Below are positions 13,434 to 28,475 of a stretch of DNA of 32,000 nucleotides, in pieces. The position numbers and the translations under genes are program-made. The stretch lies in the NCBI GenBank assembly GCA_963816715.1, contig CAWFMJ010000024.1, positions 14,111 through 46,110 of the forward strand, read 5' to 3'. Under the pieces are notes generated by a model. That model had not been told where the DNA came from. It was given only the letters and a program-made list of their open reading frames with translations, and did not search any database. Positions within the stretch are counted from its first letter, which is position 1. Each line of letters opens with the position of its first letter. The stretch comes from an uncultured delta proteobacterium. Lineage in GTDB: Bacteria; Desulfobacterota; Syntrophorhabdia; Syntrophorhabdales; WCHB1-27.

Positions 13434-13871
13434 TCAGGGTGATTCGTACAGCGATTCGGGCAGCGATTCTATATACGCCTTGATCTCGTCTCGCACGCGC
13501 CGGTAGTGCCGCATGGCCTGCTCTTTGTCCGGGGCGTCTTTTGCGAGCCGGGGCGGATCCTCAAAACTGCGGTGGATGAGAGCCGTTTTGGCGGGGAAGA
13601 AGGGACAGGTCTGCTGGGCATCGTCGCAGAGGGTGATGACGTAATCAAACTCCCTATCGCCCAGCTCTGCCACCGATTTGGACCGCTGCCCGGAGATATC
13701 AACGCCTGCTTCCTCCATGGCCCGCACGGCCCGTGGATCGACGCCTTGAGGCTGGGTTCCCGCCGAGTACGCTTCCAGAATGTCTGCCTTCAAGCGTTTT
13801 GCCCATCCTTCGGCCATCTGGCTGCGGCAGGAATTGCCCGTACAAAGGAACAACACTTTCAGTTTCCGCAT
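13434..13871 (-). CDS. arsC: Low-molecular-weight phosphatase-fold (thioredoxin-type) arsenate reductase
   Basis: MRKLKVLFLCTGNSCRSQMAEGWAKRL (CxxxxxR(S) loop), VITLCDDAQQTCPFFP, HRSFEDPPRL. Confidence 0.92.
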   Translation of the reverse strand: MRKLKVLFLCTGNSCRSQMAEGWAKRLKADILEAYSAGTQPQGVDPRAVRAMEEAGVDISGQRSKSVAELGDREFDYVITLCDDAQQTCPFFPAKTALIHRSFEDPPRLAKDAPDKEQAMRHYRRVRDEIKAYIESLPESLYESP

Positions 13872-13926
13872 GACCTGCTCCGAAAGTCATCCTGCTGAAT
13901 CTTACAGGAATGGCGCCGCCCAATCT

Positions 13927-14229
13927 TTACTGACAGGAGGGGCAGCCGTCGTCATCCACGACGCAACAGGCCTTCTTTCTGCCAAGCATCTTGTTGAGTA
14001 GGCCCGCTGCACAGCCCACACCCGCCCTCACGTTCAGGGAGCCGCTCGGGCAGTTCTGCCGGCAGGCGCCGCACTCGATGCACGCGTCCCGGGAGGCGAC
14101 TTCGATCTTCCCGTTCACAGGCCGGAACACCTCGCGCGGGCAGACGGCAAGGCACATGCCGCAGCCCGTGCACCGGGAAGCGTCAAAGGCGAGAGTGACC
14201 ACATCTTCAAGGTAGAGCAAGGGACGCAT
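13927..14229 (-). CDS. hgcB: HgcB, 2x[4Fe-4S] ferredoxin of mercury methylation
   Basis: 100 aa from ATG at 14229: CTGCGMCLAVCP and CIECGACRQNCP clusters, C-terminal CC and CPSC; directly follows hgcA (5-nt gap). Confidence 0.92.
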   Translation of the reverse strand: MRPLLYLEDVVTLAFDASRCTGCGMCLAVCPREVFRPVNGKIEVASRDACIECGACRQNCPSGSLNVRAGVGCAAGLLNKMLGRKKACCVVDDDGCPSCQ

Positions 14230-14234
14230 GGCTT

Positions 14235-15359
14235 CTACCCTCCCATCGCTGCGGCGGCGATCCACAGAGCGAGGCCCACGGTCATCCCCCCTACTTCGAG
14301 GGGAAGGGCAAGACGCATCTCCTTCTGAACTCCGGAGAGCGACGTATACGTGGAGGCGCCGGTAAAGTTCATCGCCAAAAATGCAGCCAAAGCGGGAATG
14401 GAGAAGAGCTGGGCGAGAGCAGCGGCCACGCCGGGATGCAGGAAGGCGTTGTTGAACGCGAGGGCGCAAAGGGCGAACAGGAAACCCGGGCCGAGGCCCT
14501 TTGTCGAGAAGGCCCTGCCGGGCAGCCAGGGGAGAAGAAGGGGGGCAAGGGTCGCTCCGGCAAGGATCGAGGCGCCGAGGGAAACGGCAGCCGGCAAGAT
14601 CCAGTATGCCGCCTTCGATACAGAGAAGCCGGAAACAAGGAAGAAAAGGATGGAGAGCCCCGCCGCCGCGAGGATACCCCACTTGAGGCCGGGCACAACC
14701 TCCATGGGGACCAGGGCGAGCCTCTCGTTGAGACAAAAATCCTTTGTCCGCATCCGGCCCGTTGCCTTCAGACCGTTTTTGAGGAAGGCAGGCAGGTCGT
14801 CCGCGCGGACCGGGCCGTAAACCACCTGAAAACCGGAGCGCTGCCTTACAACGTGTGCCGATACGCCGGGCGCGCCCAACTGCGGCACGATAAGGCGCCG
14901 ATGGGATACGATGGCCGCGAGGCCGCTCGACTCGATGCGCTCCACCAGCTCGTCCGTCCCGAACGTGCCCTTTCCCGCTGCGCACCAGACGTTAATCCCC
15001 TGCGTGTCGAGGACGAGGATCCACCCATCTATCCCGGCGAGGGCCCTTCTGAGGAGGTCGAAGGTCATCTTGTAGTTCGCGGTCACAAAAACCGGCGATT
15101 CCGGACGGGCAGTTCCTATCCCATACAGGCCGGGCTCGACCGCGTAGCGCATGCGTCCGATCCCCCATCGCGCCTTGAAGGCGCCGAGTCGGTCAGACCC
15201 GCTAAAAATCTGCGATACCCGAGGGACGGCGCCGACGCCGGTCTCTATCGAACCCGTGACGAAAGCCTGATCGAAGCGCGGAGGACTCGCCTGAGCCCTT
15301 TGCTTCGGTCCTCAACAGGCTTTCGCGGCAGGCGTCTTGATCTGGCACAAGGTTTCCAT
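14235..15359 (-). CDS. hgcA: HgcA, corrinoid mercury methyltransferase; the reading frame includes an in-frame TGA (15312-15314), candidate selenocysteine codon (the ORF caller only sees 14235..15152)
   Basis: Cap-helix motif GINVWCAAGKGTFGTDELVERI, RYAVEPGLYGIGT, C-terminal membrane domain. Manual translation upstream of 15152 gives METLCQIKTPAAKAC(TGA)GPKQRAQASPPRFDQAFVTGSIETGVGAVPRVSQIFSGSDRLGAFKARWGIGR-MRYAVEPG; the VPRVSQ...DRLGAFKARWGIGR stretch resembles the known HgcA N-terminus. An additional in-frame ATG lies at 15371. HgcA identity is near certain; the extended model is moderate. Confidence 0.8.
15272..15307 (-). promoter_or_regulatory. Candidate bacterial SECIS stem-loop inside hgcA
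   Basis: Minus strand CGAAGC-AA-AGGGCTC-AGGC-GAGTCCT-CCGC-GCTTCG: 6-bp lower stem, 2x4 internal loop, 7-bp upper stem (one G.U), 4-nt apical loop AGGC; 19 nt between the UGA and the apical loop. Confidence 0.6.
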
Positions 15360-15366
15360 ATTTTCA

Positions 15367-15395
15367 AACATAAACGCTTTCGACGTCCCTGTCAA
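15367..15395 (-). promoter_or_regulatory. Putative sigma70-type promoter for hgcA-hgcB-arsC
   Basis: Minus strand TTGACA (15395-15390), 17-nt spacer, TATGTT (15372-15367). Confidence 0.4.
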
Positions 15396-15460
15396 GAGGA
15401 TATATAAACTATTTTAGATGTGAGGTAACTATTTGATTGACCTGGGCCACGATATGCGTT

Positions 15461-15482
15461 ATCAATATTAATCATACTTGAT
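15461..15482. promoter_or_regulatory. Possible ArsR operator between divergent hgcA and arsR
   Basis: ATCAA-N12-TTGAT inverted arms just upstream of arsR; one more TTTGAT at 15432-15437. Based on symmetry only. Confidence 0.3.
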
Positions 15483-15497
15483 GTAAGCGGAGGGAAA

Positions 15498-15860
15498 ATG
15501 GATGAGCTCCTATCCTTATTCAAAGCGCTGTCGGACGAAACGAGGTTGAGGATAGTAAAGCTCCTGGAGAACGGCGAGCTTTGTGTATGCCATCTCGTGG
15601 CCGCTGTCGACATGTCCCAGCCGAAGGTTTCGTTCCACCTCAAGGTACTGAAGGGGGCGGGGCTGATCAAGGACAGGCGCGAGGGGAAATGGATGTATTA
15701 TCGCCTCAATGAATCGGACCTGTTCAAACGACTCCTTTTTCTGTCCGTCGCCGACCGGGTCCGGGAGGAAGAGATGGCGGCCGACCACGCAAGACTCGAC
15801 GCGTTCAGGACGCCGCGCGCGGATGGGGACCCTGGGACCGGTTGCTGTGTGGGGGCATGA
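15498..15860 (+). CDS. arsR: ArsR/SmtB-family metalloregulator
   Basis: [57 protein letters not shown]; ELCVCHL matches the As(III)-sensing motif. Confidence 0.93.
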
Positions 15861-16951
15861 AAATGAACGACACGACCCGCAGACTGTCTTTCCTCGACCG
15901 CTTCCTGACGCTCTGGATCTTCCTCGCCATGTTCGTCGGCGTCGGCTGGGGATATGCCTTCCCCGGCGTGGTGGCTTTCTGGAATCGCTTCCAGAGCGGG
16001 ACAACGAACATCCCGATTGCCATCGGCCTTATCCTCATGATGTACCCACCCCTGGCGAAGGTCAGGTACGAAGAGCTCGGCGAGGTTTTCAAGAACTTCA
16101 AGGTCCTCGGCCTGTCACTCGTGCAGAACTGGGTGGTGGGCCCGATCCTCATGTTCGTTCTCGCGATCGTTTTCCTCGAGGGCTATCCCGACTATATGGT
16201 GGGCCTCATCATGATCGGCCTGGCCCGCTGCATCGCCATGGTCATCGTGTGGAACGACCTTGCCAGGGGAGACGCCGAGTACTGCGCGGGCCTCGTGGCC
16301 TTCAACGCCCTCTTCCAGGTCCTCTTCTTCAGCGTTTACGCCTACGTCTTTATCACGGTCCTGCCCCCGATGCTCGGCCTGAAAGGCGTTGTGGTCAATA
16401 TCACCATAGGCCAGATCGCCAAAAGCGTCTTCATCTATCTGGGCGTTCCTTTCATCGCGGGCGTAGCGACGCGTTTTGTCCTCATTAACGTCAAGGACAA
16501 GGTCTGGTATCACGAGCGGTTCATCCCGAAGATCAGCCCCATCACCTTGATCGCCCTCCTGTTCACGATCCTCGTGATGTTCTCCCTCAAGGGCGAGTAT
16601 ATCGTCAAGATCCCTCTCGATGTAGTCCGCATCGCGGTTCCGCTCCTTGTCTACTTCATCGTCATGTTTCTCGTTTCCTTCTACATGAGCGGCAAGGTCG
16701 GCGCCCACTACGGCCAGGCAGCCACCCTGTCATTTACTGCGGCTTCCAACAACTTCGAGCTGGCGATCGCCGTCGCGGTTGCCGTTTTCGGCATCAATTC
16801 CGGGCAGGCCTTCGCAGCAGTCATAGGTCCGCTGGTTGAAGTGCCGGTGCTGATCAACCTGGTCCATCTGTCTCTGTGGTTCAAGAGGAAATACTTCCCC
16901 TATGCAAGAGAAACAGCAATCGGGGTGTGCTACTACACGTGCAGGCAGTAA
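15857..16951 (+). CDS. acr3: Arsenite efflux transporter, ACR3 family
   Basis: [105 protein letters not shown]; ATGA overlap with the arsR stop. Confidence 0.95.
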
Positions 16952-16976
16952 GACTATTTCGATCAAGGGGGCCGAG

Positions 16977-17426
16977 ATGAAGAACAGAACCGAAGTTGCG
17001 GTAGAGAAGTTTATGCAGGGTTACAACTGTGCCCAGTCGGTATTCTACTCTTTTTGCGACGACGTCGGATTCGATAAGAATGCGGCGTTGAAAATAGCCT
17101 GTGGATTCGGGGCCGGCATGGGGCGCAAAGAGGAGGTCTGCGGCGCCGTAACGGGCGGGATAATCGTCATCGGTATGAAATATGGCAGGGGCGAGAACGA
17201 CGCCCGTGCGGCTACGGAACTGACCTATGCAAAGACGCGAGAGCTGATGGACCGTTTTTCAGAGAAGCGCGGGACCTTCATCTGCCGAAAGCTGCTGGAC
17301 GGCTGCGAACTCACCGCCGAGGAGGGACAAAAGCACTTCAAGGAGAAGGACCTCTCGAACAAAACATGCAAGCTGTGCGTTCAAGACGCAGTCAGCATCC
17401 TGGAAGGCATCATTCAGGCAGAGTGA
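16977..17426 (+). CDS. C_GCAxxG_C_C family protein (Cys-rich, putative redox)
   Basis: GYNCAQSVFYSFCDDVG...ACGFGAGMGRKEEVCGAVTGGIIVIGMKYG...CRKLLDGCELT...CKLCVQDAVSILE. Confidence 0.85.
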   Translation: MKNRTEVAVEKFMQGYNCAQSVFYSFCDDVGFDKNAALKIACGFGAGMGRKEEVCGAVTGGIIVIGMKYGRGENDARAATELTYAKTRELMDRFSEKRGTFICRKLLDGCELTAEEGQKHFKEKDLSNKTCKLCVQDAVSILEGIIQAE

Positions 17427-25102: not shown

Positions 25103-25789
25103 ATGCGTCCAATCTGGTCAGGCGCCGTCAGCTTCGGGTTGATCAACATCCCAGTGAAGCTCTACTCGGCGGTAGGGGAAAAGGGTCCCGACCTTGACAT
25201 GCTCAGGCGTCAGGATCTTTGTCCCATACGGTACGCACGGGTCTGCCGCGACACGGGGGAGGAGGTCCCCTATGAGGATATCGTGAAAGGCTATGAGTAC
25301 CGAAAGGGCGATTATGTCGTTCTCGAAGACGAGGACTTCAAACGGGCCGCTGCCGTGAAGACCCAGACCATCGACATTGTGGAATTTGTCGACGTCAGCG
25401 AAGTAGACCCGAAGTTCTTTGAGAAACCTTACTACCTCGAGCCGACGAAACAGTCAGCCAAGGCCTACGCCATTTTGCGGGAAGCCCTGAAAAAAACAGG
25501 GAAAGTGGGCGTGGGCGTCTTCGTTCTCCGCAACCGGGAACGCCCGATCGCCCTCAAGCCGGAGGGGGACCTCATCGTGCTCGAACAGATGCGCTTCGTC
25601 GACGAGATCAGGACGCCCGAGGGACTCAATTTGCCCTCGAAGGACGAAGCGACCGAGCGGGAGCTGGACATCGCGATAAAATTGATCGACCAACTCGCGG
25701 AGCCCTTCAAGCCCGAGCAGTTTCACGACTCCTACAAAGAGGAACTGGAAAAAGCTAGTGCAGGACAAAATTCAGGGAAAACCGCCTGA
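25103..25789 (+). CDS. ku: Ku protein of bacterial NHEJ; C-terminal tail appears displaced to another frame (to 25886)
   Basis: MRPIWSGAVSFGLINIPVKLYSAV, GYEYRKGDYVVLEDEDF, FFEKPYYLEP, RFVDEIR. After the AAAAA run at 25749-25753 the alternative frame encodes KLVQDKIQGKPPEAPKEAPTPTEVPDLMAKLRESLEYARKRKTA*. Confidence 0.93.
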   Translation: MRPIWSGAVSFGLINIPVKLYSAVGEKGPDLDMLRRQDLCPIRYARVCRDTGEEVPYEDIVKGYEYRKGDYVVLEDEDFKRAAAVKTQTIDIVEFVDVSEVDPKFFEKPYYLEPTKQSAKAYAILREALKKTGKVGVGVFVLRNRERPIALKPEGDLIVLEQMRFVDEIRTPEGLNLPSKDEATERELDIAIKLIDQLAEPFKPEQFHDSYKEELEKASAGQNSGKTA

Positions 25790-25860
25790 AGCCCCCAAAG
25801 AGGCGCCGACGCCGACGGAAGTGCCGGACCTCATGGCAAAGCTCCGGGAAAGTCTCGAGT

Positions 25861-28475
25861 ATGCGCGAAAAAGAAAGACCGCCTGACGAGTCCGGCGAAA
25901 ACCTCAAAGAATACCGCGAAAAACGGGACTTCTCGGTCACTCCCGAGCCGCCAGGGACAAAAGGCGCCGAGGAAGAAAGGCCGCTCTCTTTCGTGGTTCA
26001 CAAGCATCAGGCCTCGCATCTTCACTATGATCTCCGTCTGGAACTTGACGGAGTGTTGAAAAGCTGGGCAGTCCCGAAGGGGCCGTCCCTCGATCCGGGC
26101 GAAAGAAAGCTGGCGATGATGGTGGAGGACCACCCCTTCGACTACCGGACCTTTGAGGGAGTCATCCCCGAGGGCAATTACGGGGCCGGGACAGTGATGA
26201 TCTGGGACCGGGGCGATTATCGCGCCGCTGGCCGCACGGGCCGACGGGAGAGCGAGGAGGCGCTGAGACAGGGTTTGAGCCGAGGCCATATCAGCTTCGT
26301 GCTGAACGGGCAAAAGCTGAAGGGGGAATTCGCCCTCGTGCGTTTGAAAAGAGCCGAAGAGAACAGTTGGCTTCTCATTAAGGCAAAGGATGAATTCGCG
26401 CAAAGTCCGTGGCGTCCGCAGGACGAGACGTCGGTCGCCTCCGGTAGGAGCATGGAGGAAATCGCGGCGGCGGAGGCCGCTACCCCCGCAGCGGCCCTTC
26501 ACGCTAAGGAGAAGGACCGCCAGGCGCCAAAGTACACGCCCCTCGACCTTGCCGATGCCCCGGCAGCGCCCATGCCCGCGCATGTCAAGCCGATGATGGC
26601 AACCCTCGTGGAAAAGCCCTTCGACCGGCCCGGCTGGCTCTTTGAAATCAAGTGGGACGGGTATCGGGCTCTTTGCGAGGTGAAAGGAGGCGCTGTCCGC
26701 CTCTACTCCCGAAACGACTTGACCATGAATGATCGCTTCCCGGCCCTGGCGGCGGCCCTCGCCAGCTTGCCCTTCGACGCTTTGCTTGATGGAGAGATAG
26801 TGGCGCTGGACAAATCGGGGAAGGCCGACTTTCAACTGCTTCAAAATTACCTGACGTCGGGCCAGGGCGAGCTTGTCTATTATGTCTTCGACCTCCTTTA
26901 CTACAGTGGCCGGGACCTCAGAGTGCTTCCCCTCACCAGACGCAAATCGGCCCTCGAGAAGATTATCGCGGGCCGACCCTTCCTGAGGCTGAGCGACCAT
27001 GTGGAGGCGCAGGGAGAGGCCCTTTTCCAGGCGGCGAAAGAGGCAGGCGTCGAGGGGATCGTCGCAAAGGACGGCGGCAGTCCCTACCGGTCGGGTCATC
27101 GGGGCCGGGAATGGCTGAAGGTGAAGACGCACTTGCGCCAGGAAGCGGTGATCGCCGGCTTCACTCAGCCGCGGGGCGGAAGGACCGGCTTTGGCGCCCT
27201 CGTCCTCGGTGTTTACGAAAACGGCTCGCTCGTCTACATCGGTCATACGGGCGGCGGATTTACCGACGCGCAGCTCGAGTCTCTTCACAAGCTCCTTCTG
27301 CCGCTTGCCGCAAAAGAGTCCCCTTTCAATAAGCCGCCGGCGACGAACACGCCGGCGACGTGGGTCGCCCCCAAGCTCGTCGCCGAAATCAGCTTTTCCG
27401 AGTGGACGAAGGAGGGGATCATGCGCCACCCTGTTTTTCTTGGCCTACGAGAAGATCTCGATCCCCTTGACGTGAAGAAGGAGCAACCCCAAAACCTGTC
27501 ATTCGGGACGATGCCCGGCTCAGACCCTCAGGTGGGGACGGAAGCCTCGAGAAAGCGCAAAGGAAGGCTCGTCGCCATCAACGACGTCAAGGTCGATCTG
27601 ACCAATCTGGAGAAGGTGCTCTGGCCCGGCGAAGGATATACCAAAGCAGACCTGATTGCCTACTACCGGTCTGTGGCGCCCTTTATCCTCCCCTATCTCA
27701 AGGACCGCCCGGAGTCGCTCCATCGCCATCCCGACGGCATCGCTTCCCCGGCTTCTTCCAGAAGAACGTCGGCAACGCCTTCCCGGCCTGGGTCGAAACG
27801 GTCCGCGTCTATTCAGAGTCGGACGGCAAGGAAGTGAACTACCTCCTCTGTCAGGACGAAGCGGCCCTCGTCTACATGGCAAACCTCGGCTGCATCGAGA
27901 TCAATCCCTGGCATGCAAGGACCGGACATCTCGATAATCCCGATTACATGGTCCTCGACCTCGACCCCCTGGACATTCCGTTCCATGAGGTGGTGCGATG
28001 CGCCCTTGTCACCCGCGACGTGCTCGCCACGGTAGGCGCCGCCTGTTTCTGCAAGACATCGGGCGCCACAGGCCTTCACGTTTATGTCCCCCTCGGAGCC
28101 CAATACTCCCACGATCAGGCCACGCAGTTCGCCCGGCTCGTCAACCACCTGGTACACCGGCGTCTGCCCGGCAGCACAAGCCTCGAAAGGATGCCGGAGA
28201 AGCGAAAAGGAAGGGTCTACCTCGACTTCCTCCAAAACGGCCGCGGTCAGACCCTCGTTGCGCCCTATTGCCTGCGGCCCGGAAAAGGCGCTCCGGCTTC
28301 CACCCCGCTTCTCTGGGAAGAGGTGAACGACTCCCTCGATCCCGCCCGCTTCACCATAGAGACCATGGGGGCGCGTTTGCAGCAGATGGGCGATCTGTGG
28401 AAAGATGTGCTCGGCCCCGGCATCGATATGGAGCAGTGTCTCGCCCGAATCGACGAAATGTTCGAAAAACCGTAG
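25861..28475 (+). CDS. ligD: ATP-dependent DNA ligase LigD (phosphoesterase-ligase-polymerase), interrupted by a frameshift near 27743-27750
   Basis: PE domain VVHKHQASHLHYDLRLELDGVLKSWAVPKGPS; ligase motif EIKWDGYRA; polymerase domain split: ...LKDRPESLHRHPDGI in the first frame, GFFQKNVGNAFPAWVETVRVYSESDGKEVNYLLCQDEAALVYMANLGCIEINPWH... in the second (ORF caller: 25861..27837 and 27834..28475). Confidence 0.93.

What the first reader, a model, noticed from the sequence alone, without database searches (positions are those of the whole stretch)
15153..15371. hgcA reading frame continues upstream through an in-frame TGA: candidate selenocysteine-containing HgcA
Seen directly: on the minus strand the frame upstream of the called ATG (15152) encodes GPKQRAQASPPRFDQAFVTGSIETGVGAVPRVSQIFSGSDRLGAFKARWGIGR, then a TGA (15312-15314), then in the same frame ...METLCQIKTPAAKAC. 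Between the TGA and 15152 there is no ATG, GTG, TTG or CTG codon, so a normal start for this HgcA-like N-terminus is absent unless a rare ATT/ATC/ATA start is used. Recalled knowledge: HgcA proteins begin with a segment resembling VP.VS..L...DRLG..K.RWG.GRM.Y.VEPGLY, so this stretch looks coding. The TGA sits next to a Cys codon (AC[U]GP), a common Sec context. Inference: UGA is decoded as Sec, giving a Cys-Sec pair in an N-terminal extension that could bind Hg(II), methyl-Hg or selenide. I know of no described selenocysteine HgcA.
Basis: partly seen in the sequence, partly recalled or inferred. Interest (0 to 1): 0.92.

Follow-up and report, generated by a model that had tools for sequence, protein, structure and literature searches.

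The report
Selenocysteine form of mercury-methylation protein HgcA
The mercury-methylating protein gene hgcA here really does read through an in-frame TGA that almost certainly encodes selenocysteine next to a cysteine, but this selenoprotein form of HgcA was already described in 2022-2023, so this is a correct re-discovery and an annotation fix, not a new kind of thing.

Summary
On the minus strand the hgcA frame runs METLCQIKTPAAKAC-TGA(15314..15312)-GPKQRAQASPP...GIGR-M(15152). No canonical start codon lies between the TGA and 15152.

The Sec reading is well supported:
- The TGA aligns with the second Cys of a CC motif in uninterrupted homologs.
- 38 of 80 species-level genomes carry TGA, never TAA or TAG, at this exact site. 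34 of them have a Cys codon before it.
- A conserved 5-8 bp hairpin with a 4-nt loop and an invariant loop G sits 19 nt downstream, with covariation. This is a SECIS-like element.
- The called 305-aa ORF lacks the first 25 positions of the NCBIfam HgcA profile, a segment predicted to be folded.
- TGA is an ordinary stop for other genes in the window.

The true product is most likely 374 aa (14235..15359, minus) with Cys15-Sec16 on a flexible N-terminal tail.

The novelty claim is wrong. Haft & Gwadz (bioRxiv 2022; J Bacteriol 2023) reported that most HgcA proteins are CU selenoproteins, and a 2026 review lists the family.

What I add is the SECIS hairpin, relic hairpins in Cys-form relatives, and a conserved promoter that suggests a leaderless mRNA. 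I could not check the Sec machinery of this genome.

The parts
14235..15359 (-). Full-length hgcA CDS as re-interpreted: 374 aa including Sec16, starting at the conserved ATG 15359 and with the stop codon included at 14235
   Evidence: Frame read. NF040863 HgcA scores 431.8 bits (cutoff 275), with the profile starting at residue 49 of the extended protein. The Met at 15359 is conserved in relatives, whereas the ATG at 15371 is not.
14235..15152 (-). The 305-aa ORF that gene callers report (P0001), N-terminally truncated
   Evidence: ORF list. It aligns only from profile position 26 of NF040863. It would lack a segment that AlphaFold predicts as folded, with pLDDT about 90, in the homolog.
15312..15314 (-). 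In-frame TGA, the proposed Sec16 codon
   Evidence: Aligned with the second Cys of CC in P0002, P0005, P0022, P0076 and P0114. TGA sits at the same site in 38 of 80 genomes and in the closest relatives L002 and L086-L088.
15315..15317 (-). TGT, Cys15, forming the Cys-Sec (CU) pair
   Evidence: 34 of 38 Sec-type loci have a Cys codon immediately before the TGA.
15345..15347 (-). TGC, Cys5, an extra N-terminal Cys shared only with the closest relative L002
   Evidence: Codon alignment of the window against L002. It is absent in L086-L088, P0002 and P0005.
15282..15299 (-). SECIS-like hairpin AGGGCUC-AGGC-GAGUCCU: 7 bp stem and 4-nt loop, with the stem starting 12 nt and the loop 19 nt after the UGA
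   Evidence: Fold. The same hairpin sits at a fixed distance in at least 31 of 39 Sec-type sequences. Covariation UA:26/CG:11 with no C-A, Fisher p=1e-8. The second loop base is an invariant G.
15367..15395 (-). Promoter-like TTGACA-17-TATGTT. The -10 element ends 7 nt before ATG 15359, so the transcript is probably leaderless or nearly so. The alternative ATG 15371 lies inside the -10.
   Evidence: Consensus scan, 10 of 12 matches. The same TTGACA-17-TAnnAT-7-ATG architecture is seen in L082-L088, and a TATTAT -10 box 7 nt before the ATG in L002. The transcription start itself is inferred.
14982..14984 (-). Cap-helix Cys (Cys126 of the 374-aa protein) in the NVWCAAGK motif, the HgcA signature cobalt ligand
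   Evidence: Invariant column in the alignments. Its role is taken from the HgcA literature cited in PMC11588087.
13927..14229 (-). hgcB, a 100-aa ferredoxin in the all-Cys form. Its tail reads ...ACCVVDDDGCPSCQ and lacks the usual terminal CC.
   Evidence: NF040864 scores 109.9 bits against a cutoff of 99. Tail comparison.
15498..15860 (+). Divergent ArsR/SmtB-family regulator, conserved next to hgcA in relatives
   Evidence: NF033788. The same neighbour appears in L082, L083 and L085-L088.
15842..16951 (+). ACR3 arsenite efflux transporter (genomic context)
   Evidence: TIGR00832 scores 448 bits.
13434..13871 (-). Thioredoxin-type arsenate reductase ArsC (LMW-PTP family), downstream of hgcB (genomic context)
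   Evidence: TIGR02691 matched at E=2.6e-39, but its score (134.4 bits) is below the curated cutoff of 174.3, so the name is a family-level call only.

Best explanation
hgcA in this window encodes a 374-aa selenoprotein form of the mercury-methylation corrinoid protein HgcA. Translation starts at ATG 15359, probably on a leaderless or very short-leader transcript from the TTGACA/TATGTT promoter. At codon 16 the UGA (15314..15312) is recoded to selenocysteine by SelB and tRNA-Sec. These are recruited by a small hairpin (15299..15282) whose 4-nt loop, AGGC, lies 19 nt downstream of the UGA. The result is a Cys15-Sec16 pair on a flexible N-terminal tail, about 20 residues ahead of the first folded strand of the corrinoid-binding domain. 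I infer that this thiolate/selenolate pair captures Hg(II), or handles CH3Hg+, and passes it to or from the methyl-cobalamin site under the cap-helix Cys126. The Cys pairs of MerA and MerT tails, and of the HgcB tail, do a comparable job. Shown here: the frame, the Cys/TGA alignment, conservation of TGA, the hairpin and its covariation, and the truncation of conserved folded sequence by the called start. Inferred: actual Sec insertion, the leaderless start, and the metal-handling role.
For: (1) The frame and the absence of canonical starts are verified.
(2) Uninterrupted homologs of 55-70% identity have CC where the window has C-TGA, for example P0002 ...AAPSCCGSRKRTQASPPRLDQPFV.
(3) 38 of 80 species genomes have TGA at this exact site, 34 of them after a Cys codon, and none has TAA or TAG there. 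25 others have CC, CCC or CGC in an open frame.
(4) The four closest relatives (L002, L086-L088; 75-80% identity) all have [S/A]C-TGA-G. Their upstream codons differ from the window's by synonymous third-position changes and in-frame substitutions.
(5) A hairpin of 5-8 bp with a 4-nt loop starts 19 nt (or 22 nt) after the UGA in at least 31 of 39 Sec-type sequences. The second loop base is an invariant G. The synonymous third position of an Ala/Thr codon covaries with the first position of a Ser/Gly codon (UA 26, CG 11, CA 0; p=1e-8). 82% of cells are paired, against 29-59% when the partner is slid by 1-3 columns.
(6) Distant Cys-type loci lack such a hairpin: mean stem 4.4 bp against 6.2 bp, p=9e-7.
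(7) The called 305-aa ORF starts at position 26 of the NF040863 profile, whereas the extended protein matches from position 1. In the AlphaFold model of the Cys-form homolog, the segment lost by truncation is folded (pLDDT about 90) and the CC lies in a disordered tail.
(8) TGA ends many ordinary genes in the window, so there is no code reassignment.
(9) A separate Logan assembly has the same TGA.
(10) Haft & Gwadz reached the same conclusion for 20 of 20 short HgcAs, including those of ND132 and Geobacter.
Against: No selA, selB, selC, selD or other selenoprotein gene lies in the 32-kb window, and I could not inspect the rest of the genome. No experiment has yet shown Se in any HgcA. [quoted passage not shown] So the tail is probably not strictly required for catalysis. 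Folding energy of the window sequence alone is not significant (z=-0.82). The hairpin overlaps a conserved peptide (AQxSxP), and close Cys-form relatives retain it, so part of its conservation could reflect coding constraint. The Logan assembly may derive from the same reads as the source assembly.
Confidence: 0.85

Rival explanations
1. The TGA is a true stop. METLCQIKTPAAKAC is a 15-aa upstream leader peptide, or is not translated at all. HgcA initiates downstream, either at a rare near-cognate codon (ATA 15248, ATT 15209, ATC 15161) or at ATG 15152.
For: Gene callers chose ATG 15152 (P0001). In many relatives a GTG or TTG lies 7 codons after the TGA, and databases hold proteins called from there, such as P0007, P0015 and P0070. 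The HgcA from strain ND132 cloned for a 2024 study, which I take to be the annotated short form, is active with HgcB in E. coli lysate.
Against: The window has no canonical start for 54 codons after the TGA. Starting at 15152 deletes 25 conserved profile positions and a confidently folded strand-strand-helix segment. The stop is always TGA, always at the codon aligned with Cys of CC homologs, and usually follows Cys. The upstream 15 codons evolve like coding sequence. A covarying hairpin follows at a fixed distance.
Confidence: 0.07
2. The UGA is read through without selenocysteine. Either near-cognate tRNA suppression inserts Trp, Cys or Arg, or Cys is inserted through the Sec pathway when selenium is scarce.
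For: Nothing in the window shows that the Sec machinery is present. Close relatives work with Cys at this site.
Against: A dedicated, position-fixed hairpin with a conserved loop G is what SelB-dependent recoding needs and what simple leak-through does not. Haft & Gwadz report that all 20 species they examined encode the Sec machinery.
Confidence: 0.05
3. The TGA is a sequencing or assembly error, or a recent inactivating mutation of TGC/TGT, making hgcA a pseudogene in this organism.
For: TGA differs from TGC or TGT by one base, and close relatives (P0002, P0005) have TGC at this codon.
Against: A separate Logan assembly has the identical TGA. The same TGA is found in 38 other species genomes and 3 metagenome contigs. 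The downstream gene is intact and scores well above the HgcA cutoff.
Confidence: 0.03

Closest known systems
Selenoprotein form of HgcA (NCBIfam NF040863), described by Haft & Gwadz in bioRxiv 2022 (10.1101/2022.07.06.499078) and J Bacteriol 2023, 205:e0025922
   Same: A single in-frame UGA lies upstream of the formerly predicted start. There is a Cys-Sec (CU) dipeptide followed by G-P in an N-terminal extension. The full length of 374 aa falls within their reported range of 363-400 aa. hgcB is adjacent.
   Different: They report PCUGP as perfectly conserved in their 20 cases. Here the motif is A-C-U-G-P, and across 38 genomes the flanking residues vary widely (S/G/P/A/T before C; P/G/A/T/D/C after U), with rare S-U, T-U and G-U-C variants. 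They did not confirm a SECIS with prediction servers, whereas a specific hairpin is defined here.
Cys-form HgcA with an N-terminal CC extension (for example P0005, annotated by NCBI as 'mercury methylation corrinoid protein HgcA', Syntrophorhabdales; also P0002)
   Same: 70% identical and co-linear over the whole 374-378 aa. It has the same promoter architecture and the same arsR neighbour, and it keeps the same hairpin sequence, GGACUC-AGGC-GAGUCC.
   Different: It has TGC (Cys) where the window has TGA, so it needs no recoding.
Bacterial SECIS elements, with E. coli fdhF as the prototype (compared from my own recall, not tested here)
   Same: A stem-loop sits just 3' of the UGA inside the coding region. 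There is a conserved G (often GU) in the apical loop. The stem starts 12-14 nt after the UGA, compared with 11 nt in fdhF.
   Different: The loop is a very small 4-nt one and there is no obvious bulged U. No Rfam model matches. SelB binding is untested.
Other CU-motif selenoproteins: SaoL, SaoB and SaoC of the SAO locus, and a small group of MerT family selenoproteins (Haft & Gwadz)
   Same: An adjacent Cys-Sec pair that is presumed to bind a soft heavy metal.
   Different: The protein folds and genomic context are unrelated, and no SAO genes are present in this window.

Membership tests
HgcA (mercury methylation corrinoid protein, NF040863) | Score above the curated equivalog cutoff | tested here: met
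   431.8 bits against a cutoff of 275 for the extended protein. The truncated ORF scores 398.8 bits.
HgcA (mercury methylation corrinoid protein, NF040863) | Cap-helix motif N(V/I)WCA(A/G)GK with the invariant Cys | tested here: met
   GINVWCAAGK is present, with the Cys codon at 14984..14982. The column is invariant in 28- and 42-sequence alignments.
HgcA (mercury methylation corrinoid protein, NF040863) | C-terminal membrane domain of five helices | tested here: met
   Tested by proxy. The AlphaFold model of the 70%-identical P0002 has five long helices spanning residues 214-375, and the window protein aligns over this region without gaps.
HgcA (mercury methylation corrinoid protein, NF040863) | Adjacent hgcB ferredoxin gene | tested here: met
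   NF040864 scores 109.9 bits against a cutoff of 99, and the gene starts 6 nt after the hgcA stop.
HgcA (mercury methylation corrinoid protein, NF040863) | Hg methylation activity | not testable with these tools
   This needs a methylation assay.
Bacterial selenoprotein (SelB-dependent UGA recoding) | In-frame UGA aligned with Cys in homologs | tested here: met
   The C-TGA aligns with the CC column.
Bacterial selenoprotein (SelB-dependent UGA recoding) | UGA conserved in orthologs, with coding-type conservation on both sides | tested here: met
   38 of 80 genomes and 3 metagenome contigs have it, and none has TAA or TAG at the site.
Bacterial selenoprotein (SelB-dependent UGA recoding) | SECIS stem-loop shortly downstream of the UGA | tested here: met
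   A conserved hairpin with covariation and an invariant loop G. The caveat is that it overlaps a conserved peptide and persists in close Cys forms.
Bacterial selenoprotein (SelB-dependent UGA recoding) | selA, selB, selC (tRNA-Sec) and selD present in the same genome | not testable with these tools
   None are in the 32-kb window: there are no tRNAs and no sel families among the annotated ORFs.
Bacterial selenoprotein (SelB-dependent UGA recoding) | Selenium demonstrated in the protein | not testable with these tools
   I found no published experimental proof for any HgcA.

The most novel reading that the evidence does not exclude
The Sec codon of hgcA in this clade is decoded at codon 16 of a leaderless mRNA. 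It is directed by a minimal, family-specific bacterial SECIS, a 5-8 bp stem with a 4-nt [A/G]G[G/U]N loop, that doubles as the code for the conserved AQxSxP peptide. Sec-to-Cys switches have happened so recently that Cys forms still carry the relic hairpin. A defined HgcA SECIS and a leaderless Sec gene have not, to my knowledge, been described. They would give a direct handle for expressing authentic Sec-HgcA.
Probability: 0.35. Interest if true: 0.45.

Novelty: already known. Interest (0 to 1): 0.25.

Why it matters
HgcA makes methylmercury, the neurotoxin that accumulates in food webs. If the native enzyme carries a Cys-Sec metal-binding tail, two consequences follow. Biochemistry done on the short annotated protein misses part of the machine. 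Selenium availability could also influence methylation in the environment. That point was already made by Haft & Gwadz.

For this window the practical consequence is an annotation correction, from 305 aa to 374 aa with Sec16. The SECIS hairpin and the promoter with its probable leaderless start, both defined here, could help in designing constructs that express authentic Sec-HgcA. They could also improve automatic calling of hgcA in metagenomes, where many entries are truncated at this UGA.

Tried and rejected
- **Rfam.** A search of the whole window at gathering thresholds, and of 15200-15420 at E<=10, found no relevant RNA family. Bacterial SECIS elements of this type are not modelled there.
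- **Single-sequence folding.** The 76 nt around the UGA gave z=-0.82. Energy alone is not evidence, so I relied on comparative analysis.
- **Lower stem.** The MFE fold of the window contains a lower stem, CGAAGC/GCUUCG. It is not conserved in L002 or other relatives, so I did not count it as part of the element.
- **Structure of the window protein.** I used the Cys-form homolog P0002 as a proxy.
- **Published version.** The J Bacteriol version (PMC9879109) is not held, so I used the bioRxiv version.
- **Sec genes in the window.** I looked for sel genes, tRNA-Sec and other in-frame-TGA genes and found none.
- **Genetic-code reassignment.** I considered TGA as a sense codon throughout the genome and rejected it, because TGA terminates many ordinary genes in the window.
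- **False positive.** L068 (Bacteroidales) has a TGA at a similar distance but no homology upstream, so I excluded it from the Sec-type set.

Full report
**Observation**

I read 13900-15700 on the minus strand and translated the hgcA frame. It runs ...MFENMETLCQIKTPAAKAC, then TGA at 15314..15312, then GPKQRAQASPPRFDQAFVTGSIETGVGAVPRVSQIFSGSDRLGAFKARWGIGR, then the ATG at 15152 that begins the 305-aa ORF listed mechanically.

A script over the 55 codons from the TGA to that ATG finds no ATG, GTG, TTG or CTG. It finds only ATA, ATT and ATC. The same protein occurs on a 2.1-kb Logan assembly of run ERR11523660. That DNA is identical to the window over 400 nt, including the TGA. This Logan assembly may derive from the same reads as the source assembly.

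**What the gene is**

- The extended protein, with U written as C, scores 431.8 bits on NCBIfam NF040863 (HgcA, cutoff 275).
- The profile begins at residue 49 of the 378-aa extended protein, at VPRVSQIF.
- The called 305-aa ORF aligns only from profile position 26, so it is missing 25 conserved positions.
- The next gene, 13927..14229 on the minus strand, is HgcB (NF040864, 109.9 bits against a cutoff of 99).
- The neighbours are a divergent ArsR/SmtB regulator, an ACR3 arsenite pump, a C-GCAxxG-C-C family protein and an ArsC-type arsenate reductase; the ArsC match is below its curated cutoff.
- The arsR neighbour recurs beside hgcA in relatives.

**Is the TGA a Sec codon? Protein comparison**

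A search of the large protein database returned two kinds of hit. Many were truncated calls of 301-305 aa. A smaller number were uninterrupted proteins of 372-396 aa.

The uninterrupted ones carry CC exactly where the window has C-TGA. Examples are P0002 ...HTPAAPSCCGSRKRTQASPPRLDQPFV, P0005 (named HgcA by NCBI, Syntrophorhabdales), P0022, P0076 and P0114.

**DNA comparison**

A scan of one genome per species returned 80 HgcA loci. Walking back in frame from the NVWCA motif gave the following:

- 38 loci have a TGA as the first stop, 106-109 codons upstream of that motif and 13-15 codons before the Q-x-F-V motif.
- 34 of those 38 have a Cys codon immediately before the TGA. The rest are S-U, T-U or G-U-C.
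- None has TAA or TAG at this site. In the remaining loci the first upstream stop is TGA only about half the time.
- 25 further loci have CC, CCC or CGC at the equivalent place in an open frame.

The closest relatives are L002 (75% identity) and the metagenome contigs behind P0010, P0012 and P0033 (76-80% identity). All of them have [S/A]C-TGA-G. Between the window and L002, the 15 codons upstream of the TGA differ by five synonymous third-position changes and six substitutions, with no frame disruption.

**SECIS-like hairpin**

Folding 63 nt from each UGA showed a recurrent hairpin. In the window it is AGGGCUC-AGGC-GAGUCCU at 15299..15282.

- In at least 31 of 39 Sec-type sequences the best hairpin has a 4-nt loop starting 19 nt after the UGA, or 22 or 16 nt where a codon is inserted or deleted. 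Stems are 5-8 bp.
- On the alignment, 82% of cells are paired, against 29-59% when the 3' partner is slid by 1-3 columns. No shuffle out of 500 reached the observed covariation score.
- RNAalifold independently predicts the 5-bp core.
- The most informative pair joins the synonymous third position of an Ala/Thr codon to the first position of a Ser/Gly codon. The counts are U-A 26, C-G 11, U-G 1 and C-A 0, with Fisher p=1e-8. These sequences are phylogenetically related, so the p-value overstates independence.
- The second loop base is an invariant G. The commonest loops are AGGU, AGUU and AGGC.
- Distant Cys-type loci have no comparable hairpin. Their mean stem is 4.4 bp against 6.2 bp (p=9e-7), and their mean MFE is -7.4 against -11.7 kcal/mol (p=7e-5).

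There are three caveats. The hairpin encodes a conserved peptide, AQxSxP. The closest Cys-form relatives (P0002, P0005) keep the same hairpin 19 nt after their second TGC. I read that as a relic of a recent Sec/Cys switch, but it also shows that coding constraint contributes to the conservation. Finally, the folding energy of the window sequence alone is unremarkable (z=-0.82).

**Other checks**

- TGA ends arsC, arsR, valS, gatA and other genes in the window, so there is no code reassignment.
Residues 1-22, including the CC at positions 19-20, have pLDDT below 50.
- Residues 31-75 of that model form two strands and a helix, with block-mean pLDDT of about 78-95. The window's called ATG corresponds to residue 74, so the 305-aa call would remove a folded element.
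- The Cys-Sec pair therefore sits on a flexible tether ahead of the corrinoid-binding domain.

**Start codon and promoter**

A consensus scan finds TTGACA(15395)-17-TATGTT(ending at 15367), matching 10 of 12 positions. The first ATG (15371) lies inside the -10 hexamer. The second ATG (15359) begins 8 nt after it.

The same TTGACA-17-TAnnAT-7-ATG layout is present in L082-L088, and L002 shows a TATTAT -10 box 7 nt before its ATG. Only the Met corresponding to 15359 is conserved. I therefore take 15359 as the start, giving 374 aa with Cys5, Cys15 and Sec16. I suspect a leaderless mRNA, but that is inference only.

**Comparison with what is known**

The literature search settles the novelty question. 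[quoted passage not shown] They extended 20 of 20 short HgcAs, including those of ND132 and Geobacter, through one UGA. They reported the motif PCUGP and noted that all of those species have the Sec machinery.

A 2026 review lists HgcA (NF040863) as a CU selenoprotein. Experimental proof is still missing. [quoted passage not shown]

The window's gene differs only in detail:

- Its motif is A-C-U-G-P rather than P-C-U-G-P.
- It has an extra Cys5, shared only with L002.
- Its HgcB tail has an internal ACC but ends CPSCQ, not CC.

**Mechanism**

The evidence supports UGA16 being recoded to Sec through the hairpin. The product would be a full-length HgcA whose flexible N-terminal Cys-Sec pair binds Hg(II) or methylmercury and shuttles it to or from the methyl-cobalamin site. 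The metal-handling role is inferred from three things: the chemistry of thiolate/selenolate pairs, the parallel with CC tails in HgcB, MerA and MerT, and the argument of Haft & Gwadz. It is not shown. The activity of the short enzyme suggests the tail assists catalysis and is not essential for it.

**Limits**

I could not examine the rest of this genome for selA, selB, selC and selD. Neither the window nor the tools give access to it. I put the Sec reading at 0.85. The rivals are a downstream non-canonical start (0.07), Sec-independent readthrough (0.05), and a sequencing error or pseudogene (0.03).

**Verdict**

Interest is low to moderate (0.25). What remains of value is the annotation correction, the SECIS hairpin defined here, and the possible leaderless start.

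Noticed in passing
window 15359-15395 (-); L082-L088 and L002 upstream of hgcA: A conserved promoter architecture, TTGACA-17-TAnnAT followed by exactly 7 nt and then the conserved ATG, with no Shine-Dalgarno sequence. This suggests that hgcA mRNA is leaderless in this clade. The upstream ATG that some gene callers use (15371 here, MMRD... in P0002) lies inside the -10 box.
   Followed up: partly
L082:3001-3110, L083:1337-1460, L084 (Cys-form relatives P0005 and P0002): Cys-form (TGC) relatives keep the SECIS-like hairpin GGACUC-AGGC-GAGUCC at the same distance from the codon. This looks like a relic of a recent Sec/Cys switch within the clade.
   Followed up: partly
L016 (MAG, uncultured Desulfobacteraceae), about 110 codons upstream of the NVWCA motif: TCA (Ser) stands where relatives have TGA (…AAVC-S-PKSGTAQLSPP…), while the hairpin GGCUC-AGUU-GAGCC is retained. 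This is either a Sec-to-Ser mutation or a base-call error.
   Followed up: no
window 13927-14229 (-), hgcB; also L002-L005: HgcB in this clade has an internal ACC and then an extra acidic tail (VVDDDGCPSCQ here). It lacks the terminal CC dipeptide seen in nearly all other HgcB proteins in the 80 loci.
   Followed up: partly
L014, L031, L035, L046, L057: Variant Sec contexts occur in HgcA: S-U, T-U, G-U-C and C-U-C in place of C-U. The reported 'perfectly conserved PCUGP' does not hold across a wider sample.
   Followed up: partly
window 16902-17426 (+): A C-GCAxxG-C-C family protein (TIGR01909, a family whose NCBIfam name includes selenoprotein forms) lies just after the ACR3 gene. It is the all-Cys form here. 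The same family sits near hgcAB in L082 and L084.
   Followed up: no
window 13434-17426: hgcAB is embedded in an arsenic-resistance-type cluster: a divergent arsR, then acr3, with arsC downstream of hgcB. The arsR neighbour is conserved in every relative examined, and acr3 (SBF) and arsC (LMWPc) in several.
   Followed up: partly
window 15396-15420 (-), just upstream of the -35 element: An A/T-rich motif (AAATAGTTTATATAT) is conserved next to the -35 box in relatives (L082-L088). It is a candidate operator for the divergent ArsR-type regulator.
   Followed up: no
L082:4473-5840: In the Cys-form relative, a pyridine nucleotide-disulfide oxidoreductase with a dimerisation domain (the MerA/Lpd-like family) follows hgcB. 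There is no such gene after hgcB in the window.
   Followed up: no
window 25103-27837 (+): A Ku plus LigD non-homologous end-joining gene pair, unrelated to the finding.
   Followed up: no
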